Shown in pieces: positions 20,172 to 63,337 of a DNA stretch of 64,000 nt; position 1 is the stretch's first letter; each line of letters opens with the position of its first letter. The notes under the pieces were generated by a model. It had not been told where the DNA came from and searched no databases. It worked only from the letters and a program-made list of their open reading frames with translations. Location of the stretch: IMG/VR virus record IMGVR_UViG_3300038393_000804, positions 147,598 through 211,597 of that record; one strand, 5' to 3'. Origin of the DNA: a virus. Lineage: Duplodnaviria > Heunggongvirae > Uroviricota > Caudoviricetes. Position numbers and translations under genes: made by a program.

Positions 20172-20360
20172 ATGGCTTACTACAGACCTAGCAACAATGG
20201 CTACTTCACAATATCTACTAGTAGTAATTCAACGACGACTGGTTATTATTACACGACCAATAATTATTATGGGTACAGTGGAACGTACACAGCTAAGGGT
20301 AAACAAGAGTTTAAAAATAAGGAAGTAAAACATCTATTAGAAAAGGAAAGAGGATGGTAA
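20172..20360 (+). CDS. Tyr/Thr/Asn/Ser-rich low-complexity protein with tag variant (copy 7)
   Basis: SD GGAGGA; ...TTTGYYYTTNNYYGYSGTY...KNKEVKHLLEKERGW. Confidence 0.7.
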   Translation: MAYYRPSNNGYFTISTSSNSTTTGYYYTTNNYYGYSGTYTAKGKQEFKNKEVKHLLEKERGW

Positions 20361-20374
20361 GGAGGTGAGGAGAC

Positions 20375-20899
20375 ATGGCAATCGTTAGTGGTCTACCAGC
20401 TGGTGCTGTGCTATGGAAATTTTCTGAGATGAGAAGAGTGTATAGATACAATCCAGAAGAACGTCGGCACATGCATATGGATGTAATGTGTTACTTTACA
20501 GTCGAACTATACAGTAGGCGTGCTCGTAGCAATGGAAGCTATATTAACAAAGAGCTATATCCATTTCTAAATAAGTTAAAGATTCGCTTGAATGAGGAAG
20601 AGTTCTATCGTGATGGTGGATATGAACCTGCTTACCGTGCGATTGGTGTTCAGATTCGTGAACATCTTAGCCAAGAGAGGTGGGAAGCCCTTGAGGTACA
20701 TGAGACAGCTTTAAAGTATTACAAGAAGCTGAAGAATGGAAACATTACTCCTATCTTAAATAGGCACAGTGAGTTCAACGAGAATGAAATAATTGAGGAA
20801 ATGAAAGCGGCGGCTGTTGATTTCGAACTAGAAACAGAATGGCCTGATGAACCAGCCTTCTCTATTCATGCACGGAATGTAAGTAGTGCAGCTTGGTAA
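20375..20899 (+). CDS. Hypothetical protein
   Basis: SD AAGGAGGTGA, 174 aa. Confidence 0.75.
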   Translation: MAIVSGLPAGAVLWKFSEMRRVYRYNPEERRHMHMDVMCYFTVELYSRRARSNGSYINKELYPFLNKLKIRLNEEEFYRDGGYEPAYRAIGVQIREHLSQERWEALEVHETALKYYKKLKNGNITPILNRHSEFNENEIIEEMKAAAVDFELETEWPDEPAFSIHARNVSSAAW

Positions 20900-20982
20900 G
20901 ATTATAATTCTATTAAAATAGTAGACATAAATTCCTGAAGTGGTTACTCTTATACCCTAGTATGATATAGGAGGAATCGCTG

Positions 20983-21894
20983 ATGGAATTTCGTATTGAT
21001 TCTGATGTTCTAAATGTAGAGGCTGTTGCACCTGCTCAAGCAATTGACTGGGGTGTAAGTGTGGTTCAAGCTCCACAGGTTTGGTCTTTGACTCGTGGCG
21101 AAGGCGTGAAGGTAGCTATCCTTGATACAGGGATTGACTATAATCACCCTGACCTTAAGGGCAATATCAAAGCTGGCAAGAACTTCACTTCTGCTAACGT
21201 GAATGACTACATGGACAGACAGGGACATGGTTCACACTGCGCTGGTATTATTGCTGGTGTAGATAACAACTTTGGTGTTGTTGGTGTGGCTCCTAAGGCT
21301 GAGCTTTACATTGGTAAAGTACTTGGCGACAACGGTTCTGGAGACCTTAATGCAATTGTGAAAGGTATCGACTGGGCAATTAGCCAAAGAGTTGATGTCA
21401 TTTCTATGTCATTAGGTTGCGGTGCCGACCCTGGTGAAGCTTTCCACGCAGCTTTCAAACGTGCTCATGATGCTGGTATCATCATTGTAGCCGCTTCTGG
21501 TAACGAGAACTCACACACTGGCTGGCCTGCTGCTTACGACGAAGTAATCGCTGTAGCTGCTGTTGACCAAACTTTCGGGCGTGCGAACTTCTCTAACTTC
21601 GGACCAGAGGTTGACGTTGCAGCTCCTGGTGTTGACATCTTATCTACATACAAGAATGGTCAGTATGCAAAGCTTTCAGGTACATCTATGGCTACTCCAA
21701 TGGTGTCTGGTGTTATTGCACTAGTTGTTGGATACTGCCGCAAGCTGGGCCTTCAAGCTACTCCTGATAAAATCGTACAAATGATTAGTGAGCGTTCTAT
21801 TGACATGGGTAACCAAGGCCACGACGACATGTTCGGTAACGGACTTATCAACGTGATGCGCCTGTTAAAAGGCAATAACGACGGCTTACGCTAA
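20983..21894 (+). CDS. Intracellular subtilisin-like serine protease (S8)
   Basis: Catalytic D (ILDTG), H (HGSHCAG), oxyanion N (ASGNE), S (GTSMATP); no signal peptide. Confidence 0.95.
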   Translation: MEFRIDSDVLNVEAVAPAQAIDWGVSVVQAPQVWSLTRGEGVKVAILDTGIDYNHPDLKGNIKAGKNFTSANVNDYMDRQGHGSHCAGIIAGVDNNFGVVGVAPKAELYIGKVLGDNGSGDLNAIVKGIDWAISQRVDVISMSLGCGADPGEAFHAAFKRAHDAGIIIVAASGNENSHTGWPAAYDEVIAVAAVDQTFGRANFSNFGPEVDVAAPGVDILSTYKNGQYAKLSGTSMATPMVSGVIALVVGYCRKLGLQATPDKIVQMISERSIDMGNQGHDDMFGNGLINVMRLLKGNNDGLR

Positions 21895-21900
21895 TCATGA

Positions 21901-21929
21901 AAGAGTCACTCTTCGGAGTGGCTTTTTTA
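21901..21929 (+). terminator. Intrinsic terminator
   Basis: GAGTCACTC-TTCG-GAGTGGCTT + T tract. Confidence 0.8.
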
Positions 21930-22136
21930 TTATGCTCAAAAAGGAAGTGAATTAAATGCCGAAGTACACTGTCAGTACAAATAGAATAGGTGTTAATGTG
22001 ACGGCTAAGAATGAGGATGAAGCAATTGAAAAAGGTTATGCTCAGATTAAAAAATTCATAAACCTAGGAGTCATGACTCTAACTGCTGAGAAACAAGACA
22101 GCGCTCTAAAGGAAATACGTAAAGGGGAGTGACAAT

Positions 22137-22379
22137 ATGGGTTATCCGTATAGAGTAGGAGAAGAAGTTATTATTATAAAGAATACATCAGGACATGCCT
22201 TCCAGATTGGGGAGAAGGTAACCCTTAATACAGTAGAAAAATCTGACTCAGGTTCTTATTGGTCTATGTCAGCTCTCGGTCTTGGTGAACTTGACTGGTG
22301 GTTCAATGCTACGGAATGTATGCCCGTTGATTATAAATCCAATCAAGAGGCAAAACAGTTATTAGAAACAGATTATTAA
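22137..22379 (+). CDS. SH3-like protein with shared C-terminal tag (copy 8)
   Basis: YRVGEEVII...FQIGEKVTL; ends SNQEAKQLLETDY. Confidence 0.8.
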   Translation: MGYPYRVGEEVIIIKNTSGHAFQIGEKVTLNTVEKSDSGSYWSMSALGLGELDWWFNATECMPVDYKSNQEAKQLLETDY

Positions 22380-22392
22380 AAGGCGGTGTTAT

Positions 22393-23270
22393 ATGGAGCC
22401 ATTATTATTAATTGTAGTAGCAGCCATTATCGCAGTATGGTTGTTTAAAAGTTTCCCTGGTCTTACAGTCATAGCTTTTTTCTTATTCGCCATGTATGCG
22501 ATTGAACTAGGAAGCCATGAGAAGATTCCGTTAATGACGAACTTTATGAAAGGCGTAAACATAATGTTCAATAGTAAGTTTTAGGAGGTGGTAAGATGTC
22601 ATTGAAAGAAAAGCTTGTTGAATGGAAAGAGCTTAGTGATATGAAGGATAATGCTGATGACCATACAAGGTGTCCGAGATGCCGCGAACAATTATACTTT
22701 TGTGATTGTTGTGCAGTGTTGGCTGATGAAATTCTTCTTAATCACTATGATGAAATTATAGACAAGGCAGAAGAGATGGAGTAGGAGGTAGAGGATGGCA
22801 CGCTGGACGAATCGACCTTCTTGGTGGAATGACCCTATCACACAGAGGCAAGAGCGAGCCATCGCTACCATTACTCAGTGGCTGGGTCATCAATTCACTG
22901 GCAGGGTCAAAGGGGATGCAATGGGATTCATTGGTGAGTACTATGAATTAGCCAAAGAGGTTCGTGACAATGCTGATGTGAATGGCGTTACGAATCGAAG
23001 CATGGCAAGTTTTATATTGGAGGCGGAAGGACCATGGGGTTAAACGTAAGCGAAGCGATGCTACTTAAAGCGCAGTATGAGTTGGAACAATTCCAGCCTG
23101 ATGATAGCGCATTTGATATTGTTGATGTGATTATCACTGATGAAAGCTGGGATGATTATACCCGCGGCTATCTTACATGTAAGTTGGAACAGTGGGGCGA
23201 GTCATTGGACGGCAAGGATTTACTGGAGCAGTTCATAAACTTTGTCGAAGTAATCCTCTCACGAAATTGA
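22393..23270 (+). CDS. Four small hypothetical ORFs (22393-22584 TM, 22596-22784 Cys-rich, 22795-23043, 23034-23270)
   Basis: Each preceded by an AGGAGG-type SD. Confidence 0.65.
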
Positions 23271-23298
23271 TGACGATGTCTTGACATTATGGTACAAT
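23268..23298 (+). promoter_or_regulatory. Possible sigmaA-type extended -10 promoter for the ssb-recA-thyA operon
   Basis: TG-G-TACAAT at 23290-23298; weak -35 ATGACG. Confidence 0.4.
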
Positions 23299-23424
23299 AA
23301 AAAGGCCGCTGAATACTAGCGGTCTCCTACCATAGTGCTTTACTTAGAGGATGTAAGTCTATTATATCCTGTCAGTAGAGCATTATGCTCTCAAAAATAA
23401 ATAGATATTAGGAGTTGTTTTGGT

Positions 23425-23859
23425 ATGAGTTTATCTCAAACATTTGTAGTAGGACGTTTAACAAAGGACCCAGAGGTTCGCAATGTAATGGTAGGAGGAC
23501 AAGAAACAGCAGTTGCTAACTTTGCAGTGGCTTGTGACCGTGATTACGGAGAAGGCACAGACTTCTATGATGTAGTAGTTTGGAGAAAGCAAGCTGAGAA
23601 TGTCGGCAAGTACCTAACCAAGGGTCGTGAGGTATTAGTAACAGGACGCATGCAAAAGCGTACTTACACAGCGAAGACACCAGAAGGTGCTGAATACCCA
23701 CGCGATGTATGGGAGTTGCACGCTGATAAGGTTCAGTTCTTAGGCAGCGCGAAAGATTCTGGCGGCGGTCAAGGTGGCGGAGGATATCAACGTCAAACAC
23801 CACCACCACAAGAACCTGCTTATACACCAGACCCATACGCAGGCGGAGCACCTTTCTAA
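23425..23859 (+). CDS. ssb: Single-stranded DNA-binding protein
   Basis: VGRLTKDPEVR, ANFAVACDR, FYDVVVWRKQAE, GREVLVTGR; Gly/Pro tail ending PF. Confidence 0.95.
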   Translation: MSLSQTFVVGRLTKDPEVRNVMVGGQETAVANFAVACDRDYGEGTDFYDVVVWRKQAENVGKYLTKGREVLVTGRMQKRTYTAKTPEGAEYPRDVWELHADKVQFLGSAKDSGGGQGGGGYQRQTPPPQEPAYTPDPYAGGAPF

Positions 23860-23906
23860 TAGGTGTTCCTAACCCTTCGGGGGCAATGTATTTAAGGGGG
23901 ATTTAG

Positions 23907-24227
23907 ATGTCTGACCAACGTAAGGCGAGAGCCGAATTAAAGCAAGGGCTTCATCAATTCTTAATGCAATTATACGTGAATTATTCACAGAGTCATGGGC
24001 AAGACGAGGCCAAGGAACTCGTTCAAGAATGTATCGACGAAGAGTATAAATATTTCAATCCAGATGGATTAAAGAAATCTTCCGCAAAGGAAGAGTTGTC
24101 TGCTAAGATTAAAGAACTAACAGACAAAATTGATTCGCTTAAAGACTACGACATGCAGTTATACTATGCCGAGAAAGTAGATGCAATGCAGGCTGCACTC
24201 GACGCATTAGATATAAAAATTAGCTAA
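23907..24227 (+). CDS. Hypothetical helical protein
   Basis: SD AAGGGGG; between ssb and recA. Confidence 0.7.
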   Translation: MSDQRKARAELKQGLHQFLMQLYVNYSQSHGQDEAKELVQECIDEEYKYFNPDGLKKSSAKEELSAKIKELTDKIDSLKDYDMQLYYAEKVDAMQAALDALDIKIS

Positions 24228-24250
24228 CTATACGGGGAGTTGTTTGGTAT

Positions 24251-25309
24251 ATGTCATTAGACAAAGTTTTAGCTCAAATTAATAAGCAGTTTGGTGCTGG
24301 CACAGCGCAAATCCTAACACCTGATTACGTTCGTGAAATCAAAGTGTTTAACTCTGGTTCACTAACATTAGACCTAGCACTAGGACGAGGTGGGATTCCA
24401 AGAGGTCGTTTGGTTGAAGTATTCGGCCCGACATCAGCTGGTAAAACCACACTAGCATTACTACACGCTGCGGAAGTGCAACGTGCAGGAGAAGGATATG
24501 TAGCATTTGTCGATGCGGAGCATACATTTGACCCTGTACTTGCCGCTGAATACGGTGTAGATTTAGGCTCATTGATTTACATTGACCCAGAAACTGCTGA
24601 GAATGCGATTGATACTACCGACGCTCTGATTCGTTCAGGCGAAGTTCGCTTAATCATTGTTGACTCTGTATCGGCTTTAACACCATCAAAGATTGTTGAG
24701 TCATCTGTTGAACAACAAACGATGGCACTGTTAGCCCGATTCATGAGTACTACTTGCCAGAAGTTAAATGGCCCAGCTTACCACCACGATTGTACTGTGT
24801 TATTTATTAACCAGATTCGTGAAAAGCCAGGTGCTTTCAGCCCAGCTGGTACGCCTACAACAACTTCAGGTGGTCGTGCGTTACCATTCTACAGCTCAGT
24901 CCGTTTGAATGTACGTTCTGGTGAACTGTTCAAGAACAAAGCTGGAGACCAAATTGGTCATCAGATGAAGGTCAAAGTTGTTAAGAACAAAGTAGGTATG
25001 CCAGGTAAAGAGGCAACCTTCAGCTTGTTCTATGGCAAAGGTGTTGACCGTGTGGATGAGATTTCTCAGCTGGTATTATTAGCTGGTATCATCCGTCAAG
25101 CTGGTGCTTGGTTCCGCTATGAAGATGAGAACGGTGAACCATTAGAACGCGATGGTGAGATTTGCAAATGGCAAGGCCGCGCAGCGATGACTGAATTCCT
25201 TCGTCAACATCCAAGCTTCTTAATTGAACTTGAGAACAAGCTTCGTGGTGTGGAACTTGAAGCACCAGATATAGCAGAAGACGAGAAGGTTTCAGAAGAA
25301 GGTTACTAA
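24251..25309 (+). CDS. recA: RecA recombinase
   Basis: GSLTLDLALG, Walker A GPTSAGKT, IIVDSVSAL, FINQIREK, GGRALPFYSSVRL, KVVKNKV. Confidence 0.97.
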   Translation: MSLDKVLAQINKQFGAGTAQILTPDYVREIKVFNSGSLTLDLALGRGGIPRGRLVEVFGPTSAGKTTLALLHAAEVQRAGEGYVAFVDAEHTFDPVLAAEYGVDLGSLIYIDPETAENAIDTTDALIRSGEVRLIIVDSVSALTPSKIVESSVEQQTMALLARFMSTTCQKLNGPAYHHDCTVLFINQIREKPGAFSPAGTPTTTSGGRALPFYSSVRLNVRSGELFKNKAGDQIGHQMKVKVVKNKVGMPGKEATFSLFYGKGVDRVDEISQLVLLAGIIRQAGAWFRYEDENGEPLERDGEICKWQGRAAMTEFLRQHPSFLIELENKLRGVELEAPDIAEDEKVSEEGY

Positions 25310-25317
25310 TTAAATAC

Positions 25318-25349
25318 GGGGAGTTGCCTGCGGGTTGCTCCCTTTTTTT
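25318..25349 (+). terminator. Intrinsic terminator
   Basis: GGGGAGTTGCC...GGTTGCTCCC + T7. Confidence 0.65.
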
Positions 25350-25370
25350 ATAACAGGGGGAGAGTCAAAC

Positions 25371-26270: not shown

Positions 26271-26427
26271 TGGATGAAATGATACTGGCATTAAACGCAC
26301 TGAAGGAAGCATTGATTCAAGGTAAGGGTTATGAAGTTTTGAATAGCCCTACCCAGGAAATCTTGAATGCAAACATCGCAGAGTTATCTGACATTATGGT
26401 TCGTTACTGTAAGGATAACTACGACGT

Positions 26428-31791: not shown

Positions 31792-32130
31792 ATGGAGTTC
31801 ACAACTGTTTATCGGTATCCTGATGGTATCAATGCCAATAACTTTGGGGCTATTTCTAAAATGCTGCTGAAGGGTACGTCTGTAGAGTTTAATTGTGGGG
31901 CTAGTCAGTATGGCTCACGAGGTAGTGCAGAGAACAATGTGCAATTTCAGAAGCATGTGCAACTATGGGTAGGCTATATCCAAAGCCGCATGAAAGAAGA
32001 CCATGGGTTTACTGATAAGTTGGAATACGATTATTGCTCTAAAGATGATTGGACAAAGGTGCGTGTTCATTCACCTATGGATTTTAAAAGCAACATTAAA
32101 GCAAAACGATTATTAAGTAAAGAATATTAG
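31792..32130 (+). CDS. Hypothetical protein with shared C-terminal tag (copy 9)
   Basis: SD GGAGGG; ends SNIKAKRLLSKEY. Confidence 0.8.
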   Translation: MEFTTVYRYPDGINANNFGAISKMLLKGTSVEFNCGASQYGSRGSAENNVQFQKHVQLWVGYIQSRMKEDHGFTDKLEYDYCSKDDWTKVRVHSPMDFKSNIKAKRLLSKEY

Positions 32131-32141: not shown

Positions 32142-32420
32142 ATGGCAGTAGTAAACATGTTAGACATTTCAACAGGACACATTACAGAGAGTACAAATGA
32201 TTGGCTAATGACAGCTGGTACAACAGTAGGATTCCTTGTTTATCCTAGAGAATATGGCTGGTTGATTCCTGTATTAGACTATCAAGAGGAAGTTCATATT
32301 ACAAATATCCCGCGCGACCTTATTGCCGTTCTTTATTATGCAAAGGGATTGGGATGTGAATGGATTAATCTAGACAAGGATGCTGACTTTGAAAAGGAGT
32401 TGCCGACGTATGAATGGTAA
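32142..32420 (+). CDS. Hypothetical protein
   Basis: SD AGGAGGG; MLDISTGHIT...GCEWINLDKDA...LPTYEW. Confidence 0.7.
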   Translation: MAVVNMLDISTGHITESTNDWLMTAGTTVGFLVYPREYGWLIPVLDYQEEVHITNIPRDLIAVLYYAKGLGCEWINLDKDADFEKELPTYEW

Positions 32421-32685
32421 TAAAGTAGAGTGTCCATTGTGCGGCGCTGATATGCCATTAACAGAGTTGGAATCTGCTCCCAATGGGAGAGAAAACAAAT
32501 CATATATATGGATATGTAATGAGTGCCCTGGCATCCTATTAGAGTGGGTGGACTACAAAGATACGGATGCATTTAACAAGTACATTAACTTTCACGAAGG
32601 AGTGATTAAGTGTCATGGAGAACACGGGTATGTCGGAGAAACAACTAACAATAAAAATATTAAGCGACTTGACTCAGACTATTGA
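32410..32685 (+). CDS. Zinc-ribbon protein with tag variant (copy 10)
   Basis: CPLC...CNEC; ends NNKNIKRLDSDY. Confidence 0.7.
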   Translation: MNGNKVECPLCGADMPLTELESAPNGRENKSYIWICNECPGILLEWVDYKDTDAFNKYINFHEGVIKCHGEHGYVGETTNNKNIKRLDSDY

Positions 32686-33460
32686 CCAGCTGCAATATCA
32701 CATTAGTATGCAAGACTCATTCTTGCGTGAACATTTCCGTCAGTATGCAAGTTATGGGCCTAGCACCCATGGGTTATTGCAGACTATTAAGACGGACATT
32801 TTAAATTTGCAGAAGATAACGTTATCTAATAAAGATAATGCGCATCTATTATCTCCAGTGCAGGAGGAGCCAAGACCACAGCAGCAACGGGCTATTAGAT
32901 ATCAGCCTGACCAATGGGGATATGCTGAGTTCTAGGAGGAATTAAAATGGATATGAATTGCCCTGAATGCTTTCGGTATTCAGTGGGTGGATGGCTATGT
33001 AGAAGATGTATTAATGAAAAGATGGATGCCATGAAATCTGAATATAGAGAATGGCTAGAAGAAATAGAGGTGCTTCCAGATGAAGAGAATCGTTACGGTT
33101 GAAAACTTATACCAACAGGCAATGAAGAACTCAAGGAGAGCGTCGGGTATTGGGTCCGCCCGTACCATGCGACGTGGTCACGCCGTTTATGAAGTTATCA
33201 TAGACAGGAATGCACGCATTGCTTATCTCAAACACTATGGAACAGTGACCATCAAGTACCACTTGCAAGACAGAGAGTTGCTGGAATGGTACGGTGAAGG
33301 GGTGAGCGACAGAGATTCTATGAATACATTTGTGAGTTGCCTTCAAGAAGACAGATATTATTTCCGTTATGGAAGTAAGATGGGATTCCAGATGGAACAC
33401 GAAGGGAGATTGATTCCAATTGAAGAGGCGAATCAAAGCATATGGGTGGGACTGTCCTGA
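32615..33460 (+). CDS. Hypothetical ORFs (32615-32935, a short CPEC ORF near 32947-33100, 33080-33460)
   Basis: Contiguous SD-led ORFs. Confidence 0.55.
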
Positions 33461-33719
33461 TTGTGGTGAAGCTCATACTCCAGACGACTGGAATGAAATG
33501 ACGCTGAGATACATCCAACAGGAAATCGACACCACTTACACGATGGAACGGATGACCAAGATTGAAGATTCAAAGATGGATGGTGAAGTGTTCTTCATTT
33601 GTCCATCTTGCAGCAGCTTTAATTACAACTACAATCACTACTTTAATAAAGTTTATGTGGAGGTAGAAGTAGAAAGCAACAAGGAAGCTGCCAAATATAT
33701 ATTAGAGGAGAGTTGGTAA
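33420..33719 (+). CDS. Zinc-finger protein with tag variant (copy 11)
   Basis: CPDC..HT...WNE...CPSC; ends SNKEAAKYILEESW; paralogue of 49745-49948. Confidence 0.75.
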   Translation: MKRRIKAYGWDCPDCGEAHTPDDWNEMTLRYIQQEIDTTYTMERMTKIEDSKMDGEVFFICPSCSSFNYNYNHYFNKVYVEVEVESNKEAAKYILEESW

Positions 33720-35212: not shown

Positions 35213-35702
35213 TTTGGGTTATCGTAATTCAGTTTATTATTATCTTGATTATGGGATGGATGATTTGGGACTCACAGAAAGCAATAAGAAACCTGCTTGA
35301 TATGTGGGCGGAAGAACAGAACAAGAAGTGGGTGCAAATGATGAAAGAGTCAGGAGCAGAGATAATTTATTTAGGAGGCGAAAAGAAATGAGCCTAGATA
35401 TATGGCTAACAGCAGTAGTAGAACATGAAGTAGTAAGTAGAAACATTACACACAATCTAGGCAAGATGTGGGTAGAGGCAGGTATCTATGATGCGCTCTA
35501 CAGGTCAGAAGGAAAGAGGGCAATGGATGTCCTTCCTGAGCTAGAGAATGGCCTTGTTCTTATGGTAAATGAGCCAGAAAGATTTAAAAAGTTCAGCGCA
35601 TCCAATGGATGGGGAACATACGAGCAAGCGGTGCCGTGGCTGGCAGACCTGATTGAGAAGTTTAAGGAATACCCTGAGGGTAAGATAGGAATATCTAGAT
35701 GA
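35209..35702 (+). CDS. Two small ORFs (35209-35391 TM, 35388-35702)
   Basis: ATGA couplings; SLDIWL...NITHNLGKMW. Confidence 0.65.
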
Positions 35703-35959
35703 GTATCTTTCCTAAAGCATCAATCAACAGACCTTTGGAGGTGGGGCAGCACATCGTTATTGATGTGTCCCAGGTTCCAGAGTTTAAAAGATTTTATTAT
35801 CCTGGCGTGACAGATGTAGATTTTACATTGATTCAGATACTTAACTATGAGAGCGGAACATTCTATGTTGTCTCAGATGATGTTCATGTATTCTCTATCG
35901 AGATTGAAATGCCTGACACGAATGCAGAAGCAATAGGCTTCTTGGATAATGAATATTAG
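35699..35959 (+). CDS. Beta-rich small protein with shared C-terminal tag (copy 12)
   Basis: LEVGQHIVID; ends TNAEAIGFLDNEY. Confidence 0.75.
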   Translation: MSIFPKASINRPLEVGQHIVIDVSQVPEFKRFYYPGVTDVDFTLIQILNYESGTFYVVSDDVHVFSIEIEMPDTNAEAIGFLDNEY

Positions 35960-49031: not shown

Positions 49032-51280
49032 ATGTTCAAGCCAGGAGACATCTGTCTTGTAAAGGACAATGATGTTCTCTCTGGTCTATATCGTTCGCTA
49101 ATTGGAAAGCATGTAATTATATTAAATGGCCCAGTCATTAATGACAAGTATCCTATTGACGTTATTAGTCCAGAGAGTATGTTTCAGAGAAGCACGCAGC
49201 TTCAAATGAGAGCTAGCCTTTTAGTAAAGGAGGTAGTAGAATGCGAGTAGTAGAAGCCATTATCTCAGAAGTGGTTGAAAGCTATGCTATCGTCACATTA
49301 GATGATGACGGTAATGTAATTAACACAGAGAATGTGGAAGAGAAAGACCGCTACGATTTAGAGATTGTAGACATCTTGCACAATGTAGATGAAGAGGGAG
49401 AAGTAGAAGACCCACGGGAGGTAGAATAGTAATGAGCACATATGGAGAGAACCAGAAACAAATCAAACAAAACGTATTAGCATTGTTAGAGGCATTCGAA
49501 CAAGCACGCAACAGTGACAAATACTTGTTGCTGAAATACTGGCAAGTGGTTGATAGCATCCCAATGGGTGAAGGTTTTGTCCAGGCTTTTGTTGGTCATT
49601 CTACATCGGCAGAAAGCATCACGCGGGCAAGACGAAGTATCCAGTCTTCGGGATTGTTTCCTCCAACAGACCCAGATGTCTTGAAGAAGCGTAAGTTACT
49701 TCAGGAAGAAGCAAGACTACATCACTCAGAACAGTAAAGGAGGGTTGTCCATGCCATCAGTAGATACATTGTATCAATGCCCAGTATGTGAATCAGAGCA
49801 TACAGCAGAAGAGTGGAACGAAACAACGGAAGAAGATTTCGAGACGCATAACATCATGCCAATCGAAGTCGCTGATTCTCCAGAGTATCGTTATACTTGT
49901 CCAACATGTTGGAACATTAATGACATTGAGGACATTGCAAGAAAGTAGGAGACAACATGTTAATTAAAAAAGCTCATACATTAGAAGAGCTATTTATGTA
50001 TCTGGAAGCTCTGGAAATGTTGGATATGGAATACACAATTCAGAAACTTCCAGAGTCAGATGCGGGGGATATTATCCTCCCACTGACATGGGTAATTGAG
50101 TACTGGCCGATTGAAAGACAGGCTAAGAAATCCCCAATTGAATATGAGGACTAGGAGGGACAGAATGTTCAATGAAGCCTCAGCAAAAGTAGCCTACATG
50201 TTAGGGATACTTGAAGGAGAAAATCTAATTGAGCCTTTTGACAACTGGGATGAAGTTGCATTGGTCTGCCACAACATTGCTATGGATTGGAGCGACCATG
50301 TTGACATTCAAGATGAGGAAGAAGAAGGCTATATCATGAGGTATGCTGAGCGCATACTCAGTGAAAAATATCCAAGAAGAGCAGAGAGGGCGTAAGCCTT
50401 CTCTTTTTTTATGAAAGGAGATGACAATATGTATATCTACTTTAAGCATATGAATTTAAGAACACCTGCAAGCAGGAATGATGAATTCGCAAATGAGTTG
50501 GAAAAACTATTAATTAAATATGCTGGTACTGACTGGACATATCAGTACACAACAGAAGACGAAGAAGGTGAATATGATGACGAAGAAGAATCCAGCAGTG
50601 AGATTTGATTTGCAATGTGTAAGTGTGAAGTGGGTGCCAGCTGATGTAGAATCATTTGCTTATGGAGAAACGTTCATTGAAGGTGTGCAAGATTTAATCG
50701 ACACTATCAATAGAAAAGACGAAGCTCCATGGGATAGCAGCGGCGAATGGTTTAAAACGTATTATTATACATGCGAAGATGAAGGTTACTACTTCTATAC
50801 AGAAGAAGATATGGATTACGAAGGAGAGGAAGATTTTAACCCTGAGAACGACCCGCAAGAAGTCCCAAACGATATTGACTTTGATGATTATAAGGAGGAA
50901 GAATAATGAATACACCGAAGCAAAAGTGTACAGATTGTGGACACATATCAGACCAGTTCATTCAGCCAGCAAAGGTTGACTGCGATGCATTGGTAGATTA
51001 TAAAGGGGAGTTCCAATGGTGGAAGAGTGAGAACTTTGAAAACCCTAGCTTCGAACATGGAACTTTCATGTGTGAGAATTGTTACTCAGAAAACTTAGAG
51101 GACTACACTGAAGAGAAGACACCAGAAGAATATATTAAGGAAGCTTTTGATGCTGGTGCTCTTGCCATTACATTAATCAATGGAAAGCCTGCACCATGGA
51201 CACCATTTGGTATGGAACCAGACATTAGAAACTTTACAAGAGGAAACAAAGCAAACAGAAAGAAGAAGGAGGAAGAATAA
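49032..51280 (+). CDS. Run of about ten small, mostly acidic or Zn-binding accessory ORFs
   Basis: 49032, 49241, 49432, 49745, 49957, ~50165, 50411, ~50568, 50906; SD-led, E/D-rich C-termini. Confidence 0.6.
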
Positions 51281-55679: not shown

Positions 55680-55680
55680 A

Positions 55681-58017: not shown

Positions 58018-58045
58018 GATAGAGCCGCCACCTCTGGACAACATA
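58017..58045 (+). promoter_or_regulatory. Possible sigmaG/sigmaF-type forespore promoter
   Basis: GGATA-17 nt-CAACATA upstream of the SASP SD; fits gnATr...cAtnnTA loosely. Confidence 0.35.
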
Positions 58046-58065
58046 ACTTAAAGGAGGTGGATAAC

Positions 58066-58257
58066 ATGGCATCTAACAACCGAAATAGTTTGATTGTTCC
58101 TGGTGTTGAATCTGCTCTTAACCAAATGAAGTTTGAAATTGCCTCAGAGTTTGGAGTCCAGCTCGGAGCGGAATCAACTGCTCGTGCTAACGGTTCCGTT
58201 GGCGGGGAGATTACCAAACGTCTTTGTGCAATGGCTTACTCAGGGATTCACCGATAG
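58066..58257 (+). CDS. ssp: Alpha/beta-type small acid-soluble spore protein
   Basis: [42 protein letters not shown]; SD AAAGGAGGTG. Confidence 0.93.
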
Positions 58258-58302
58258 AAGATAATAACACTAACAACCAATTCATAAAAAATACGATTAG
58301 AA

Positions 58303-58335
58303 AAGCAGCTTACTTGGGACGGTAGGCTGCTTCTC
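58303..58335. terminator. Probable bidirectional terminator
   Basis: GCAGCTTAC...GTAGGCTGC between convergent genes. Confidence 0.55.
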
Positions 58336-58340
58336 TGTTA

Positions 58341-58535
58341 TTATTTACTTTTATCAATCAATACATAATTATAGAACGCCCATAGAGCAGCGACCATCGC
58401 GCCCTCATAGATGATGGTTGCAACAAGTACTACCATCGGAATCTTTCCTACTGCTAAATAAGTAAAGCCAACTACAATAGCCGTCATAATCATGGTTGTT
58501 AAAACCCATAGTATGATTCCAGTAGATTCCTTCAT
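58341..58535 (-). CDS. Two-TM membrane protein
   Basis: Two hydrophobic helices. Confidence 0.65.
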   Translation of the reverse strand: MKESTGIILWVLTTMIMTAIVVGFTYLAVGKIPMVVLVATIIYEGAMVAALWAFYNYVLIDKSK

Positions 58536-58924
58536 TCTTCTTCCTCCTCGAACATTGCGATAATATCCAAGTCTTCATCGTATCGGCTCATGTCAATGGT
58601 ACGGTGATTATCCTTTACATGATTCCAGAAGATAGTGATGATACGCTCAGAGGCTATCTCGACTACCACACATGGAACCCAGTTATGTATCGGTGTCTCA
58701 CTGCGGAACAGTAAACGACTATGTCCATTCCGACAATGGTATTCTATTAAGCTACCATATTCAATGGCCTCAATAATATCAGACAAAGTACCGCCGCGCT
58801 TTTCCATCTGTTGACGTACATGCCCACTCATTATCCATGACTTCCTCTTTACCAGTGAAGTAAAGAAGTCTACTTCCTCCAGCGACATTTGAGAGATGTG
58901 TTTACGGATGGATGATTGAGTCAT
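58532..58924 (-). CDS. DUF4258-like (BrnT/RelE-fold) protein
   Basis: SGHVRQQMEKRG..DIIEAI..VVE..RIITIF. Confidence 0.6.
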   Translation of the reverse strand: MTQSSIRKHISQMSLEEVDFFTSLVKRKSWIMSGHVRQQMEKRGGTLSDIIEAIEYGSLIEYHCRNGHSRLLFRSETPIHNWVPCVVVEIASERIITIFWNHVKDNHRTIDMSRYDEDLDIIAMFEEEEE

Positions 58925-59068
58925 GACGCTAACTCCTTCATTTTCCTTACAACGAATAAGTAGAACGTGTCGTTCTCATATACCCCTGTTAAGATTTCTT
59001 CTGTCTTTTTCATATCGTACTCTTCCCCTAATTGGTCCAACAGTTCATCTGTCAGGCTAACCACAGTG

Positions 59069-59620
59069 TTATTTCCCCCCGAAAATTTGGTTGTGTAGTT
59101 TTTTATTTGCCTTTAAAATATCAAGCTTCAAGGCATCTGTTGTTATCTTATGGTTATAAGCCACACGGATTAACGTAATGCCTTTCTTCTTGCAGGCTTC
59201 TTCCTTCAGTCTGTCGCACTCTTTGTAGTATTCGAAGTTCTTCTTCGACTTATGGATGTACTTATTGTACTCCTCGTGCTGCTTGCCATCGTATTCAAAG
59301 CCGAGTTTCAAGTCAGGATAGTATCGGTCCATCTGGAGCGGATATCCCTTCGGGCTTAATAGGAAGGAGTAATAACCATGATTAATATAGTCATGTCCTC
59401 CCAGTAACGAATCCAGAGCACGGAATAAAATAAGCTCACCCTGAGTGTTCTTGTTATCAGGGAACTTCTTACCACTAGAAGGTTTCTTTGTGGCTGTCTT
59501 CTTAGCCGCTGGCTTCTTCTTGACGGTCAAACGGCAGGTTGAACAAACCTTCGGCTTCTTCGTTGTATATTTAATTTCTTTTCCGCACTCTGTACAGTTC
59601 GTTACGTTAAGTTCTGTCAT
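59069..59620 (-). CDS. Vsr/DUF559-like endonuclease with N-terminal Zn ribbon
   Basis: CTEC..CSTC; LQMDRYYPDLKLGFEYDGKQH; KEEACKKKGITLIRV. Confidence 0.78.
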   Translation of the reverse strand: MTELNVTNCTECGKEIKYTTKKPKVCSTCRLTVKKKPAAKKTATKKPSSGKKFPDNKNTQGELILFRALDSLLGGHDYINHGYYSFLLSPKGYPLQMDRYYPDLKLGFEYDGKQHEEYNKYIHKSKKNFEYYKECDRLKEEACKKKGITLIRVAYNHKITTDALKLDILKANKKLHNQIFGGK

Positions 59621-60462
59621 GAATAAAAGCCCTCTTGTATTAGTTTTTCTACTGTTTCTTTTACGATGGCATCAGCTTTCTTGCGTTGGCGGAAGATGGT
59701 GTTAATATGAATGCCCATCATGTCGGCAATCTTTCCATCGCTCCAGCCGTCTTCGTAGTTCAGCTTGATAATCAAACGTTGCAGCTGAGATAATTCTTTA
59801 AACTCTTCTCCGCATGTGAACCCACGAACCCAGTTGATATCCAATTCTTCTTCCATCTGCATGATAGGAAGATTCATTAGGATACTGTCTTGTAATTCAA
59901 TCACGCTATCATCATCGCCAAGCAGGTCATCTGCTATACGAATCAGGCGGTCAGGATGTTTTACATACATTTCATCTGGTTGTAGTAACTTCTTGATAAA
60001 GTTGGCTACTTCAAATCGGTAGTAGTTGTAAAGGTATCCGTTGAAATCCACGTTCTTCTTTACCTTCTTGTACTTCTTGGCTACCTTCAGGAACATGGCT
60101 ACAAGCTCTTGGCGTAAGTCATCATCCGTCATAACACGTAATGAATGCTCCAGGTTCTGAAGCTTTCTCCGCGCTGCTTGTTGCGTTGGCTTGTACTGAT
60201 AAGCCTTTCTCATTTCCTTCCGCATGCAAGGGTCTTCAAGGAATAAAGAGATGAATAGGCGGCTGTCCCTGTCATTCAGGTCAAGCTTGCCATAGCGGAG
60301 CATCTTGAAGTACTTGCCTAAGTAAAGGCTTAGGTCTCTCTTCTTAGGATGCCCACCGTAGATTTCAAGGAGTTCCATTGCAGCTTCTTCGCTACCGTTT
60401 TGATAAGCAAATACCAACTCATCAATATTGTTGTCTGGGTTGTAGTTCTCTTTTCTCATCAT
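59617..60462 (-). CDS. Sigma-70 family RNA polymerase sigma factor (regions 2 and 4, no acidic region 1.1)
   Basis: LVFAYQNG..A..L, DDDLRQE..FL....KY...FNGYL, LSQLQRLIIKLNYEDGWSDGKIADMMGIH. Confidence 0.82.
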   Translation of the reverse strand: MMRKENYNPDNNIDELVFAYQNGSEEAAMELLEIYGGHPKKRDLSLYLGKYFKMLRYGKLDLNDRDSRLFISLFLEDPCMRKEMRKAYQYKPTQQAARRKLQNLEHSLRVMTDDDLRQELVAMFLKVAKKYKKVKKNVDFNGYLYNYYRFEVANFIKKLLQPDEMYVKHPDRLIRIADDLLGDDDSVIELQDSILMNLPIMQMEEELDINWVRGFTCGEEFKELSQLQRLIIKLNYEDGWSDGKIADMMGIHINTIFRQRKKADAIVKETVEKLIQEGFYS

Positions 60463-60471
60463 AATCGCTCC

Positions 60472-60939
60472 TTATTTTTGAGCGTCAAGAATATGACGGA
60501 AGCGCTGTACAATCCTTTTTACTTTCAAGTCTTCGTTGCTGCATAAGAAGTTCTCCATTAGTTCTTCTTCCGTAGGGAATGAAGCTCCTAATGTTGATGT
60601 CGGCCCGAAGATTAAATCCAAATCTTCTTCGCTTAGGTTGTCAAAGTAACCTTGCTCTTCTGATAAGAAGTCAAATAGATTTGCAAACCCGACACCTTCA
60701 TCTTCAAACAGACTGTCGATATCGCCATCAAAGTCTTCAAGGTTAATGACCCCAAGGAATACAACGTCATCATCAAAGTCGCCATCAAAATCCCCGATGA
60801 ATGACGTACCTTTGATAGAGCCTGTTGCTTCCAGGTCAAGCACCATGTCGATGATATCCTCTAATGCGTCCTCTTCCAACAAGTCAAGAAAGCTTTCAAG
60901 CGTTAAATCAACGCCCGCCTCACCTTTATAAATTCTCAT
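60472..60939 (-). CDS. Highly acidic protein
   Basis: About 41 D/E in 155 aa; no K/R between residues 44 and 138. Confidence 0.72.
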   Translation of the reverse strand: MRIYKGEAGVDLTLESFLDLLEEDALEDIIDMVLDLEATGSIKGTSFIGDFDGDFDDDVVFLGVINLEDFDGDIDSLFEDEGVGFANLFDFLSEEQGYFDNLSEEDLDLIFGPTSTLGASFPTEEELMENFLCSNEDLKVKRIVQRFRHILDAQK

Positions 60940-60967
60940 TATTAGCTCCTCCAGACGTATTCTTTAG

Positions 60968-61222
60968 CTACCATTTTAGTGTTTTGGTTGGTTTAATTTT
61001 AAATGTTGATTCCAATTCGGAATAGCAATCTTCGCACAAGTGAACTTCAAAGTCTTCCATATCGTACTTGGTTGAACCATATCCGAAGTCGGCAGTGATG
61101 ACAGCTGAATTAAAGTTGACCATGTCTTCGCCTAGTTCATACCTGCAAGACTTGCCGCACTTATTGCAAAGGACATCTGTTACAGTGTCTTTCTCAACTA
61201 ATTTTTTCTCCAGTATCTCCAT
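60968..61222 (-). CDS. Zn-binding hypothetical protein
   Basis: CNKC...FGYGSTKYD...LCEDC. Confidence 0.68.
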   Translation of the reverse strand: MEILEKKLVEKDTVTDVLCNKCGKSCRYELGEDMVNFNSAVITADFGYGSTKYDMEDFEVHLCEDCYSELESTFKIKPTKTLKW

Positions 61223-61694
61223 TGTCTTCCCCCGTAAAGTATGATACGCCAGCATAAGCAATGCCTATAGCATCGGCAATATCGTTTTCTTTGTCTGTCA
61301 ATTCCAGACCGTACACTTCATTTACCCAGTTAAGAGTATCTTCTTTCTTAGCATTACCTTTCCCATGGGTAATCTTTCTCCAAGAGCTGGGATGCATCAG
61401 TTCGAACGGCAAATCATATTGCCCTGCAAGCAGTACCATGAGTCCAGATGTACGAGCAAGCTTCTTTAATGTATCCTTATTGAGTCCACCATGTTGGTCT
61501 TCACATAGGATATATTCTACTGCACACTCTTCAATGACTTTAGCCAGTGTATTGTATTGCATTGCTGCCTGCTGTCCAATAGTCATCTTCTTCTTGTTTG
61601 GTTTGATTACTCCATAAGCAAGAAGTTCTCTGTGTTCATTCATTACTGCAAATCCACTTGAAGCAGTGGATGGGTCAATACCTAAAATGTTCAT
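61194..61694 (-). CDS. ruvC: RuvC-like Holliday junction resolvase
   Basis: ILGIDPS..SGFAV, LCEDQ, PSSWRK, GNAKKED, DIADAIGI. Confidence 0.88.
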   Translation of the reverse strand: MNILGIDPSTASSGFAVMNEHRELLAYGVIKPNKKKMTIGQQAAMQYNTLAKVIEECAVEYILCEDQHGGLNKDTLKKLARTSGLMVLLAGQYDLPFELMHPSSWRKITHGKGNAKKEDTLNWVNEVYGLELTDKENDIADAIGIAYAGVSYFTGEDNGDTGEKIS

Positions 61695-61709
61695 TGCCGT
61701 TTCCCCCGA

Positions 61710-62834
61710 TTACTTACGTCTTTTCTTTTTAAACTTCTTATCGCTAATTGTAGCTTGCGAAATCTTAGCCTCAGTAATTTCAGCTGATGCAAGTTCACCT
61801 TCTACAAAGTCTGCAATTGATTTTGGATTATTATTAATCACTGTTACTAAGTCAGTGTCCACTTCATAGGCTACTCCATCTACGACATCTAATGAATGAA
61901 GAATGTTGGACAGTTGTTTCTGGTCAATCCCTTTTGCCAGTACAACATAATGAAAATCTGGAGTAAAACCCTTGGCTACATAAGAACCAACATGACGATT
62001 CGCTGGTGCCTTGTATTCGCCGCCAAAATGAATTAACTCACGTTCATCTGATAGTCCTTCAATCGTGATGTCAGCATCGAATTCATAGGAGTGTACCGTT
62101 ACTACGGTATCATATACTTTTAGCATTTGTGTTATCATTACAATCCCTCCATACGTTATTTGTAACCACTATTGGTGGGTTTTGTAAAGATAAAAATAAA
62201 GAGAGGGTCAGTCCCTCTCCGTAAAGTCTAGCATGCTGTTGATAGCATTCTCAATGTATTCCTGAATATAGGTTTCTGCCCACTGAGGAATCTTATCATA
62301 GTCAATGCGGCCCAGGTAGAAGGCTCTTCGCAACTCTTCCTTCTTCTTGTACAATGGCTTGGATGCATCCTCTGCAAAGGTGTCGGCATAGCCAAAGTGC
62401 TTTAGCTGTTCTTCCGCCGCGTCCTCTACTGCTTCAATCGCCTTGTTAAGCTTTCCTACTAAGCTAGCAATTGCCTTTGATACAAAGCGCTCAGTGATAA
62501 GGTCACCGTACCGTACTTGAAGCTTAGGTTTAGATGCACCAATGGCTTCTTCAATCTGTTTAAGGATGTCTTCACCAGCAATGAATGTCTCCTGTTTGGA
62601 GTAAGCTTCGCCCTTATCAAAATCAATAGTGAATTCTTCTTCTTCATCTTCGTCCTCTTCTTCTACGTTAGAAGAGTCAGCCACACTGTTGAAGGTTTGG
62701 AACTTGCTCAAGTATCCTTCAATCTCTTTCTCGTCTTGTTCTTTAATGTATTCAAGTTCTTCTTTTGTTAATTCCCGCGTCTCTTCTTTTGGTACAAGCT
62801 CTACTACTTTGTTTTCATCTTTCTTCTTTGCCAT
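61710..62834 (-). CDS. Two hypothetical proteins (61710-62138, 62208-62834 acidic)
   Basis: SD-led minus-strand ORFs. Confidence 0.68.
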
Positions 62835-62845
62835 GATGATTCCCC

Positions 62846-63337
62846 CTATAATTCATCTGGACTAGCCAGCAATAAGTCTTTCACTGATTTGTTTGTAGGA
62901 TTCTTTGGAATGTGAAACTTCTCCTCCATGTGACCCTCGGATATACAATCACAGATATATCCATTCCATGTTGTGGATTGTCTTGATTGTGTTACGGACA
63001 CATTTGGAACGACGACTTCGTATTTCGATTCATGAGGCTTGATATGAATATTAAAAAAGTCTTGAGTAGCCATAATGCCACGGAAAGCAGACGGTTCGAG
63101 ATAAAGTGTAGACAGAAATCTACGACGGCGTGGAGCAAAGTAAGCAGGTAGTCGGTCTCCGAACGAGTAAATAGGCTCCCTTTCGACGACGAGCTGGTAC
63201 TCGACTGAGAGGACTTTAATCTCCTGACCGTTTCTTGTAGTGACCCAGATGTCGGCCATGGTGCTGTCGATGGATGCACCTTCTTCAACGTAGGTGTTGT
63301 ACACATTTAACCACTCCCAAAAGTAAAAGCCCACCAT
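62846..63337 (-). CDS. Beta-rich protein, weak tail-tube-like motif, ends in tag variant (copy 13)
   Basis: REPIYSFGDRLPAYFAPRRR; ends PTNKSVKDLLLASPDEL. Confidence 0.55.
   Translation of the reverse strand: MVGFYFWEWLNVYNTYVEEGASIDSTMADIWVTTRNGQEIKVLSVEYQLVVEREPIYSFGDRLPAYFAPRRRRFLSTLYLEPSAFRGIMATQDFFNIHIKPHESKYEVVVPNVSVTQSRQSTTWNGYICDCISEGHMEEKFHIPKNPTNKSVKDLLLASPDEL

What the first reader, a model, noticed from the sequence alone, without database searches (positions are those of the whole stretch)
20172..63337. The tag recurs on seven dispersed genes of different folds, including a paralogue pair with and without it
Seen: 22137-22379 (SNQEAKQLLETDY), 31792-32130 (SNIKAKRLLSKEY) and 35699-35959 (TNAEAIGFLDNEY) keep the exact 12-residue register. 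Looser variants end 20172-20360 (NKEVKHLLEKERGW, on a Y/T/N low-complexity body), 32410-32685 (NKNIKRLDSDY, Zn ribbon), 33420-33719 (SNKEAAKYILEESW, Zn finger) and 62846-63337 (TNKSVKDLLLASPDEL). The Zn finger at 33420 has a paralogue at 49745-49948 (CPxC..HT..WNE.T...IE...CPxC) that ends without the tag. Inference: the tag is a detachable module added to or removed from unrelated proteins, as expected of a targeting signal rather than a fold element.
Basis: partly seen in the sequence, partly recalled or inferred. Interest (0 to 1): 0.85.

Follow-up and report, generated by a model that had tools for sequence, protein, structure and literature searches.

The report
Shared C-terminal helix tag on phage proteins
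About 17 small early proteins of this uncultured Bacillus-type giant phage, and about 45 in each of two cultured relatives, end in one short helical peptide kept by selection on the peptide itself; it behaves like a portable docking tag, and its reader is still unknown.

Summary

- **The seven cited ORFs.** Five are true members (22137, 31792, 35699, 20172, 33420). One is marginal (32410). The minus-strand ORF at 62846 is a chance match.
- **Genome-wide.** 17 ORFs, all on the + strand, end in [STN]-N-x-[EG]-A-x-x-L-L-x-K-E-[WYF]-stop.
- **Level of selection.** Synonymous sites in the tail are saturated, so selection acts on the peptide. Only the K-E codons double as the next gene's ribosome-binding site, and only in the arrays.
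- **Bodies.** The bodies fall into at least seven groups with no similarity even at the profile level. The same SH3-like barrel occurs without a tail in other phages. The tagged Zn-finger has an untagged paralogue (E = 5e-6).
- **Relatives.** Cultured phages WH1 and Edson carry a sister version of the tail on about 14% of their genes. Within shared body families the tail follows the phage lineage, not the family. That points to a shared constraint, most simply one common binding partner.
- **What is not shown.** No reader was identified, and a targeting role is untested.

This scan has reported analogous shared tails in other phages, but not this peptide. Verdict: observation largely confirmed; "detachable module" supported; "targeting signal" unproven.

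The parts
22137..22379 (+). 80-aa protein: SH3-like (YorP-like, PHROG 10201) barrel plus exact-register tail SNQEAKQLLETDY (tail codons 22338-22376)
   Evidence: PSSM 28.7 bits. PHROG 10201 E = 2.8e-11 covering residues 4-65 only. AF2: barrel 10-63 at pLDDT 84-90, helix 66-78 at pLDDT 55-69. Foldseek gives about 60-residue matches to SH3/KOW/Tudor barrels. Orthologue P0006 keeps the tail.
31792..32130 (+). 112-aa orphan protein with exact-register tail SNIKAKRLLSKEY (tail codons 32089-32127). The SD of the next gene lies after the stop, so K-E use the non-SD codons AAA GAA.
   Evidence: PSSM 35.7 bits; DNA; weak orthologues in WH1 and Edson carry the lineage-B tail.
35699..35959 (+). 86-aa protein with exact-register variant tail TNAEAIGFLDNEY (tail codons 35918-35956)
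   Evidence: PSSM 24.5 bits. The gene is absent at this position in a relative whose primase is 90% identical.
20172..20360 (+). 62-aa Tyr/Thr/Asn/Ser-rich low-complexity protein ending in a tail variant, KNKEVKHLLEKER plus GW (tail codons 20313-20357)
   Evidence: PSSM 17.0 bits at offset 2, 0 of 3,867 null ORFs as high; RBS-supported start.
33420..33719 (+). 99-aa two-knuckle Zn-finger protein, about 18-residue linker, then tail SNKEAAKYILEESW, which is one residue longer than the consensus (tail codons 33675-33716)
   Evidence: PSSM 15.6 bits with one insertion. Orthologue P0004 is 73% identical overall but 14/14 in the tail. The same longer form occurs on the unrelated barrel P0025. The AF2 model is of low confidence.
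32410..32685 (+). 91-aa Zn-ribbon protein with a marginal, possibly decaying tail TNNKNIKRLDSDY (codons 32644-32682)
   Evidence: PSSM 4.8 bits, 2 of 3,867 null ORFs as high. The orthologue ends TNAEHAKGLDSSY; tail 54% identical versus body 81%.
49745..49948 (+). 67-aa untagged Zn-finger paralogue of 33420
   Evidence: BLASTP E = 5e-6; alignment A2; has a homologue in tail-less KLEB27-3.
62846..63337 (-). 163-aa minus-strand ORF in the structural region; not a member of the tagged set
   Evidence: PSSM -6.8 bits, 78 of 3,867 null ORFs score as high; no family hit.
1381..3039 (+). Tandem array of six tagged genes (1381-1653, 1655-1873, 1876-2172, 2174-2482, 2484-2777 with an in-frame TAA at 2544-2546, 2779-3039). 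Here K-E-W-stop (AAGGAGTGGTAR) is also the SD of the next gene.
   Evidence: PSSM 36.8-43.1 bits; DNA; orthologous but reordered array in relative L007.
1..180 (+). 3' end of a 114-aa gene (it starts 164 nt before the window, directly after the E1 gene of the Ubl operon) carrying an internal tail variant, KNTEAKSLLKKYEW plus NVK
   Evidence: PSSM 27.3 bits; orthologue in L007 at E = 5e-34 with the same variant.

Best explanation
The tail is an autonomous C-terminal peptide module of about 13 residues: an N-capped, three-turn amphipathic helix appended to many otherwise unrelated small early proteins in a clade of Bacillus-type jumbo phages.

Shown here:
- It is far beyond chance.
- It is conserved as a peptide while synonymous sites are saturated.
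- It is better conserved than the bodies it sits on.
- It is dispensable for at least one body fold.
- It has a lineage-specific form that is uniform across different body families within a genome.

Inferred: the tail works as a docking handle that lets one common partner recognise this whole set of proteins. The partner could be phage- or host-encoded, for example a scaffold, chaperone or protease adaptor. The partner's binding site differs between phage lineages, which forces all tails in a genome to change together. In the tandem arrays the last codons (AAG GAG) were additionally co-opted as the Shine-Dalgarno site of the next gene. The identity of the partner, and the consequence of docking (localisation, turnover or assembly), are unknown.
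For: - Beyond chance: 15 ORFs score 15-43 bits against a null maximum of 10.8 bits (n = 3,867); shuffled tails reach at most 8.2 bits.
- C-terminal only: all strong hits are C-terminal.
- Peptide-level selection: codon sharing at conserved residues equals the codon-usage expectation (Ala4 0.34 vs 0.34, Leu7 0.24 vs 0.21, Leu8 0.28 vs 0.21, Asn1 0.56 vs 0.51). Dispersed members keep [KNT]-[ED]-Y with non-SD codons and a separate SD after the stop.
- Tail more conserved than body: orthologue pairs give tail 68% vs body 52% identity, p = 0.006. P0004's tail is 14/14 identical at 73% overall identity.
- Modularity: no pairwise body similarity; at least seven groups unrelated at the profile level; the PHROG 10201 profile ends before the tail; untailed barrels P0018, Kirov and S4-4, and tandem-domain forms; tagged versus untagged Zn-finger paralogues.
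- Structure: helix 66-78 at pLDDT 55-69 behind a barrel at 84-90. Foldseek matches cover only about 60 residues.
- Clade-wide sister form: 45 of 328 WH1 genes and 46 of 330 Edson genes end in [STN]N-x2-[ATS]-[VLI]-x2-[MLF]-K-x-E-x3-6, against 2/255 and 0/259 in controls.
- Concerted change: in the three body families shared by both lineages the tail follows the lineage, and 111 of 113 tails are classified correctly by lineage.
Against: - No partner was identified. The phyletic screen gives only 13 candidates, and its best-conserved pair (DUF8224 plus AAA ATPase) belongs to families widespread in phages that lack the tail.
- The concerted-change argument rests on three shared families with only five lineage-A proteins, and my anchoring regexes were lineage-specific, which adds some circularity.
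- Ancient gene conversion followed by synonymous drift could also homogenise tails within a lineage.
- In lineage B the residues after E11 vary in number and identity, so a free-carboxylate reader is unlikely there.
- Many bodies may still be cryptic small beta-barrels, in which case a structural role cannot be excluded.
- The AF2 confidence for the tail is low and no coordinates were available to inspect contacts.
- My gene sets come from a crude ORF filter, although WH1's deposited CDS calls agree.
Confidence: 0.45

Rival explanations
1. Fold element of one very old, fast-evolving superfamily of small beta-barrel proteins. The C-terminal helix caps the barrel and is simply the slowest-evolving part. 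There is no external reader.
For: Several bodies start with an SH3/KOW-like xVGxxVxI strand. The 22137 body is an SH3-like barrel. Families 3, 6 and 7 are related at the profile level, and families 0 and 2 share a weak hint. Arrays of clear paralogues exist in WH1 and Edson.
Against: - The barrel exists and is conserved without the helix.
- The tail also ends Zn-finger and low-complexity bodies.
- Most family pairs score below 5% in hhalign.
- Tails follow lineage, not family, which an intramolecular cap on different bodies does not predict.
- The helix has low pLDDT.
Confidence: 0.15
2. By-product of gene-boundary DNA. The tail reflects the Shine-Dalgarno site, stop codon and translational-coupling context, or a roughly 40-nt recombination cassette that shuffles genes and homogenises their ends.
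For: In 8 of 17 members K-E-[WY]-stop is AAGGAGTGGTAR or AAGGAGTATTGA, followed by the next gene's ATG or GTG within 1-3 nt. WH1 tails often hold the SD with an ATGA overlap. Array order differs between this phage and L007.
Against: - N1, A4, L7 and L8 lie 12-33 nt upstream of the SD and use all synonymous codons at the frequencies expected from codon usage.
- Ser9 uses both the AGY and TCN codon families.
- Five members have a separate SD after the stop yet keep the tail.
- Many WH1 tails use non-SD K-x-E codons.
- An SD read in other frames would give G-G or R-R, which are not seen.
This explains the AAG GAG codon bias in the arrays, but not the tag.
Confidence: 0.05
3. The tails bind each other, so that differently bodied small proteins co-assemble into mixed oligomers through a helical bundle.
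For: It is an amphipathic helix: A4, L7, L8 and [WY]12 fall within about 140 degrees of a helical wheel (read from the sequence; helix predicted). Lineage-uniform tails would also be expected for mutual recognition.
Against: The helix is very short (three turns) with only three or four hydrophobic positions. The lineage-B tails are net acidic. There is no direct evidence.
Confidence: 0.1
4. The conserved C-terminal residues act inside the ribosome exit tunnel as a nascent peptide that modulates termination and re-initiation in tightly coupled polycistronic arrays.
For: The tail always occupies the last 12-17 residues, and tailed genes are nearly always followed within a few nucleotides by the next start.
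Against: - The distance from the conserved residues to the stop varies (3-6 residues after E11 in lineage B), whereas arrest peptides need exact spacing.
- The host ribosome tunnel is conserved, which does not predict lineage-specific tails.
- The tail of the gene ending at window 180 has no closely following gene.
Confidence: 0.07
5. Virion-packaging (capsid-targeting) signal, as the first reader suggested among other options.
For: Jumbo phages package many proteins. T4 uses a short shared targeting peptide for its internal proteins (established knowledge).
Against: All tailed genes lie in the early and replication region on the + strand, none among the structural genes. None of the roughly 20 tailed WH1 genes inspected is annotated as a virion protein, although the record uses that label for other genes. 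This evidence is weak because the basis of that annotation is unknown.
Confidence: 0.05

Closest known systems
Shared C-terminal docking tails of phage replication proteins (T7 gp2.5 and gp4 acidic tails ending in Phe; T4 clamp-binding tails; bacterial SSB tail DDDIPF)
   Same: A short C-terminal peptide shared by otherwise unrelated proteins, read by a common partner. Lineage A ends in an aromatic residue with a free carboxylate.
   Different: The tail here is a basic-to-neutral N-capped amphipathic helix, not an acidic run. It sits on 17-46 small proteins of unknown function, not on a few replication enzymes. The phage's own SSB keeps a normal acidic tail ending in PF. No partner is known.
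ESCRT-III MIM1 helix read by the MIT domain of the AAA ATPase Vps4
   Same: A C-terminal amphipathic helix of about three turns with Leu at i and i+3/4, borne by several different proteins and read by one partner.
   Different: The MIM1 consensus (D/E)xxLxxRLxxL(K/R) is not matched. No MIT domain was detected. The phage AAA ATPase restricted to tail-bearing genomes belongs to a family common in tail-less phages.
C-terminal degrons (ssrA tag read by ClpXP and SspB)
   Same: A portable C-terminal peptide that commits diverse proteins to one machine. It would suit timed removal of early proteins.
   Different: There is no LAA-type terminus. The tail is encoded in the gene, not added in trans. Lineage B ends are variable. 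Turnover is untested.
Analogous shared-tail findings of this scan in other phages (e1-173140, e1-4772764, e1-831089, e1-3433680)
   Same: One short terminal peptide on many unrelated small phage proteins, uniform within a genome and differing between related genomes, with no reader known.
   Different: The peptide, the host group and the phage clade are all different. In this case two cultured phages carry the sister form, so it can be tested at the bench.
YorP-like / PHROG 10201 SH3-like barrels of Bacillus phages
   Same: The body of 22137 is a member (E = 2.8e-11).
   Different: The family profile and most members lack the tail, which is an add-on specific to this jumbo-phage clade.

Membership tests
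PHROG 10201 / YorP-like SH3-like barrel (body of 22137 only) | Significant full-length match to the family profile | tested here: met
   E = 2.8e-11; residues 4-65 cover profile positions 4-64 of 65. tblastn hits to proteins annotated YorP-like.
PHROG 10201 / YorP-like SH3-like barrel (body of 22137 only) | Small five-stranded SH3-like beta-barrel fold | tested here: met
   The AF2 model has five strands at pLDDT 84-90. Foldseek top hits are eS4 KOW, PetP, PsaE, SH3 and Tudor domains at TM about 0.55 and rmsd 2.3-2.5 A over about 60 residues, but E is only about 0.01.
Acidic C-terminal docking tails (SSB / T7 gp2.5 type) | Run of Asp/Glu ending in a hydrophobic or aromatic residue with a free carboxylate | tested here: not met
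   The lineage-A consensus has K2, K5, [RK]6 and K10 and only E3 and E11. Lineage-B ends vary in length and residue.
MIM1-MIT (ESCRT-III/Vps4) | Consensus (D/E)xxLxxRLxxL(K/R) at the C-terminus and an MIT-domain reader | tested here: not met
   The tail logo does not fit the consensus. Pfam finds only an AAA domain, and no MIT, in the phage AAA protein.
ssrA-type degron | C-terminal Ala-Ala or LAA recognised by ClpX | tested here: not met
   Tails end in [WYF] (lineage A) or variable residues (lineage B).
Membrane-targeting amphipathic helix (MinD/FtsA type) | C-terminal amphipathic helix with a broad hydrophobic face and net positive charge; the pattern is conserved, not the sequence | tested here: not met
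   Polar residues N1, E3, S9 and E11 are conserved as identities. There are only three or four hydrophobic positions. Lineage-B tails are net acidic.
T4-type capsid targeting sequence | N-terminal peptide removed by the prohead protease after L/I-x-E; carriers are virion proteins | tested here: not met
   The tail is C-terminal. The carriers lie in the early region, and none is annotated as a virion protein in WH1.
Companion of the phage Ubl-conjugation (PRTRC-like) operon | Tail-bearing genes co-occur with the operon | tested here: not met
   KLEB27-3 has the operon but neither the tails nor the body families.

The most novel reading that the evidence does not exclude
A clade of Bacillus jumbo phages labels 5-14% of its proteins, unrelated small early proteins, with one genome-specific C-terminal helix. 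A single hub protein, still unidentified, reads this helix, co-evolves with it, and handles the whole set as one group, for example for timed degradation, sequestration or assembly on a scaffold. That would be an undescribed viral protein-addressing system.
Probability: 0.35. Interest if true: 0.8.

Novelty: new variant of a known kind. Interest (0 to 1): 0.6.

Why it matters
Most small early genes of large phages have no known function. A shared peptide that marks dozens of them and evolves in concert gives a single experimental handle on the whole set: one synthetic peptide could pull down the common partner.

The sister form of the tail sits on about 45 genes in each of two cultured Bacillus cereus phages (WH1 and Edson), so the idea can be tested at the bench now. 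It also shows how a coding tail and a ribosome-binding site can share the same nucleotides without the peptide being a mere by-product.

Tried and rejected
- **Coupling to the Ubl operon** (lead from e1-1681795): rejected. KLEB27-3 has the operon but no tails.
- **S8 subtilase as reader or processor:** it is conserved next to the tailed YorP-like gene in four relatives, but it is shared only with tail-less KLEB27-3 and is absent from WH1 and Edson. Rejected.
- **DUF8224 (693 aa) plus AAA ATPase pair and the SPFH protein as readers:** these are restricted to tail-bearing genomes among the four complete ones, but the first two belong to families widespread in phages. They gave no PDB or NCBIfam identification. 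Kept only as weak leads.
- **Host mimicry or a prophage reservoir:** a back-translated tail pattern found only 6 scattered single hits in 596 Gb of prokaryote genomes, 3 in IMG/VR and 61 single hits in metagenomes. All are at chance level, and none is an array.
- **More relatives via the helicase or RNR:** none was found, or the search was misled by horizontal transfer. RecA found four KLEB-like relatives without tails near RecA.
- **Complex prediction of two differently bodied tailed proteins (22137 with 2174):** the tool returned no verdict. This counts neither for nor against binding.
- **Pfam, NCBIfam and atlas searches on most bodies:** nothing above threshold.
- **PDB sequence search with 22137:** nothing meaningful.
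- **AF2 model of 33420:** too poor (mean pLDDT 51) to support a fold call.
- **Literature searches:** no description of this tail and no paper on WH1 or KLEB27-3 in the library.

Full report
**Context.** The window is bases 147,598-211,597 of a 264,094-bp uncultured jumbo phage record. Its core genes are about 50-60% identical to those of Bacillus phages vB_BceM_WH1, Edson and vB_BauM_KLEB27-3. Nearly all genes in the first 55 kb of the window are on the + strand.

**Observation.** A regex and then a position-specific model showed that the peptide is much commoner than reported. Eleven ORFs share the exact register N-x2-A-x3-L-x3-[YW]-stop, and six more are register variants. All 17 are on the + strand between genome positions 113,907 and 183,556.

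I tested the cited cases against 3,867 other ORF C-termini, allowing offsets and one insertion. The null maximum was 10.8 bits, and 6,760 shuffled tails reached at most 8.2 bits.
- 31792: 35.7 bits. Member.
- 22137: 28.7 bits. Member.
- 35699: 24.5 bits. Member.
- 20172: 17.0 bits. Member.
- 33420: 15.6 bits. Member.
- 32410: 4.8 bits, with 2 null ORFs as high. Marginal.
- 62846 (minus strand): -6.8 bits, with 78 null ORFs as high. Chance.

The second named test also passes: 33420 and 49745 align at E = 5e-6.

**Peptide or DNA?** In eight members the last codons are AAG GAG TGG (or TAT) plus the stop, and the next gene's start codon (ATG or GTG) follows within 1-3 nt. This does not explain the tag, for three reasons.
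- Five members have a separate SD after the stop and keep [KNT]-[ED]-Y with non-SD codons.
- At the conserved Asn1, Ala4, Leu7 and Leu8, pairs of tails share the same codon no more often than codon usage predicts: 0.56 vs 0.51, 0.34 vs 0.34, 0.24 vs 0.21 and 0.28 vs 0.21.
- Ser9 uses both codon families.

Synonymous sites are saturated while the peptide is kept. Selection therefore acts on the peptide, and recent gene conversion, cassette recombination or an RNA element is not what maintains it.

**Relatives of the same lineage.** A 25-kb metagenomic contig (L007) has the same synteny: poly-Ubl, JAMM, E1, a tailed 115-aa gene, a nucleotidase, then an array. It carries seven tailed array genes, with content and order different from this phage. 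Short contigs from two further relatives hold orthologues of 33420, 32410 and 22137. In seven orthologue pairs the tail is 68% identical and the body 52% (p = 0.006). The 33420 tail is 14/14 identical at 73% overall identity. The one exception is 32410, with tail 54% and body 81%, which fits its marginal score. Genes 35699 and 31792 are missing at their positions in a relative whose primase is 90% identical, so tailed genes belong to the flexible gene content.

**A sister form in cultured phages.** Unbiased clustering of C-termini showed that WH1 and Edson each have about 45 genes (14% of genes) ending in [STN]-N-x2-[ATS]-[VLI]-x2-[MLF]-K-x-E-x3-6. The controls gave 2/255 and 0/259. This form shares N1, a small residue at 4, a hydrophobic residue at 8 and E11 with the form in this phage. 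There too, K-x-E is the SD in some genes but not in many others. KLEB27-3 lacks both the tails and nearly all the body families. Four KLEB-like IMG/VR relatives show no tails near RecA.

**Are the bodies unrelated?**
- With tails removed, the 17 bodies show no pairwise BLASTP similarity; the best E is 0.09.
- The 117 tailed proteins from four genomes fall into 39 clusters.
- Among the ten larger families, only families 3, 6 and 7 are related by hhalign. Families 0 and 2 share a weak N-terminal hint, and all other pairs are below 5% probability.
- No Pfam family passes its threshold.
- The body of 22137 is an SH3-like barrel (PHROG 10201, E = 2.8e-11).
- In a search of 1.8 billion representative proteins the same barrel occurs alone without a tail, as tandem repeats, inside very large proteins, and with recognisable tails. 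One of those tails is the one-residue-longer form also seen on the Zn-finger 33420.
- Kirov and S4-4 barrels have no tail.
- AF2 gives a confident barrel (pLDDT 84-90) followed by a helix at residues 66-78 with pLDDT 55-69. Foldseek matches to SH3, KOW and Tudor barrels span only about 60 residues.
- The 33420 model is too poor to use for more than 'not a barrel; linker; terminal helix'.
- The untagged paralogue 49745 has a KLEB27-3 homologue and the tagged 33420 does not. The simplest history is tail gain on a duplicate.
- The 20172 carrier is low-complexity and offers no fold for the helix to cap.

I cannot exclude that several orphan bodies are cryptic small barrels. 'Different folds' is shown for barrel versus Zn-finger versus low-complexity, but not for all.

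**Concerted change.** Three body families have members in both lineages. In each, the tails match the genome's lineage and not the family, and 111 of 113 tails are classified by lineage. There are two caveats: only five lineage-A proteins are involved, and the anchoring step used lineage-specific patterns. Since these families predate the split, their tails changed in parallel. A constraint shared by all tails of a genome, most simply one binding partner, explains this. A fold cap on different bodies does not.

- The neighbouring Ubl operon is not coupled to the tail, because KLEB27-3 has the operon and no tails.
- The S8 protease is shared only with KLEB27-3.
- Thirteen genes are present in this phage, WH1 and Edson but absent from KLEB27-3. 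They include an SPFH protein preceded by tailed genes in both lineages, a highly conserved DUF8224/AAA-ATPase pair, a vWA-TerF protein, a glutaredoxin and a 174-aa unknown next to 20172. Two of these families are widespread in tail-less phages, and none is specifically implicated.
- Scans of prokaryote genomes, IMG/VR and metagenomes for the back-translated tail gave only chance-level single hits. I see no host protein being mimicked and no prophage reservoir.

**Comparison with known systems.** In logic the tail resembles shared docking tails (SSB, T7 gp2.5 and gp4, T4 clamp binders), MIM helices read by MIT domains, and C-terminal degrons. It meets the defining sequence features of none of them (see the membership table). 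This scan has reported analogous shared tails in other phages, but neither this peptide nor this protein. I found no description in the searchable literature.

**Verdict.** 'Detachable module' is supported. 'Targeting signal' remains one untested option within a docking-tag model, to which I give about 45%. The feature is a new variant of a known kind. Its interest is moderate to high because cultured phages make it testable.

Noticed in passing
window 2484-2777: The fifth gene of the tagged array reads as one 97-codon ORF interrupted by a single in-frame TAA at 2544-2546, a few bases after an A7 run. Its L007 orthologue has Met at that position. It may be a pseudogene, a sequencing error or a recoding site. 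The 3' part still ends in a perfect tail.
   Followed up: partly
window 20172-20360 and L003:5129-6415 (JAMM gene upstream of the window): The Tyr/Gly/Ser/Thr-rich low-complexity body of the tailed 62-aa protein resembles in composition the Gly/Tyr/Ser-rich C-terminal extension of the Ubl-operon JAMM peptidase noted earlier (e1-1681798).
   Followed up: no
window 20983-22379; L054; L055: An S8 subtilase gene followed, directly or after one tiny ORF, by the tailed YorP-like gene is a neighbourhood seen in this phage and in the two short contigs L054 and L055; L053 has the syntenic tailed gene, but the contig does not reach an S8 gene. The protease is also present in tail-less KLEB27-3 and absent from WH1 and Edson.
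   Followed up: partly
genome 120190-123622 (L002:8190-11622), upstream of the window: A DUF8224 protein (693 aa) and an AAA ATPase (372 aa) are 68% and 58% identical to their WH1 counterparts. That is more conserved than RecA or the helicase. They are absent from KLEB27-3, and their function is unknown.
   Followed up: partly
genome 113907-116112 (L002:1907-4112); WH1 185334-186940; Edson 182667-184714: In both lineages an SPFH/Band-7 gene is immediately preceded by one or two tailed genes whose bodies are not detectably homologous between the lineages.
   Followed up: no
L007:9541-9783: Inside the relative's tagged array sits an 80-aa Zn-ribbon gene without a tail, so array membership does not by itself confer the tail.
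   Followed up: no
window 13318-15411: The class I ribonucleotide reductase large subunit is up to 79% identical to genes in unrelated IMG/VR records that lack the phage's RecA. This indicates horizontal transfer of the RNR gene.
   Followed up: partly
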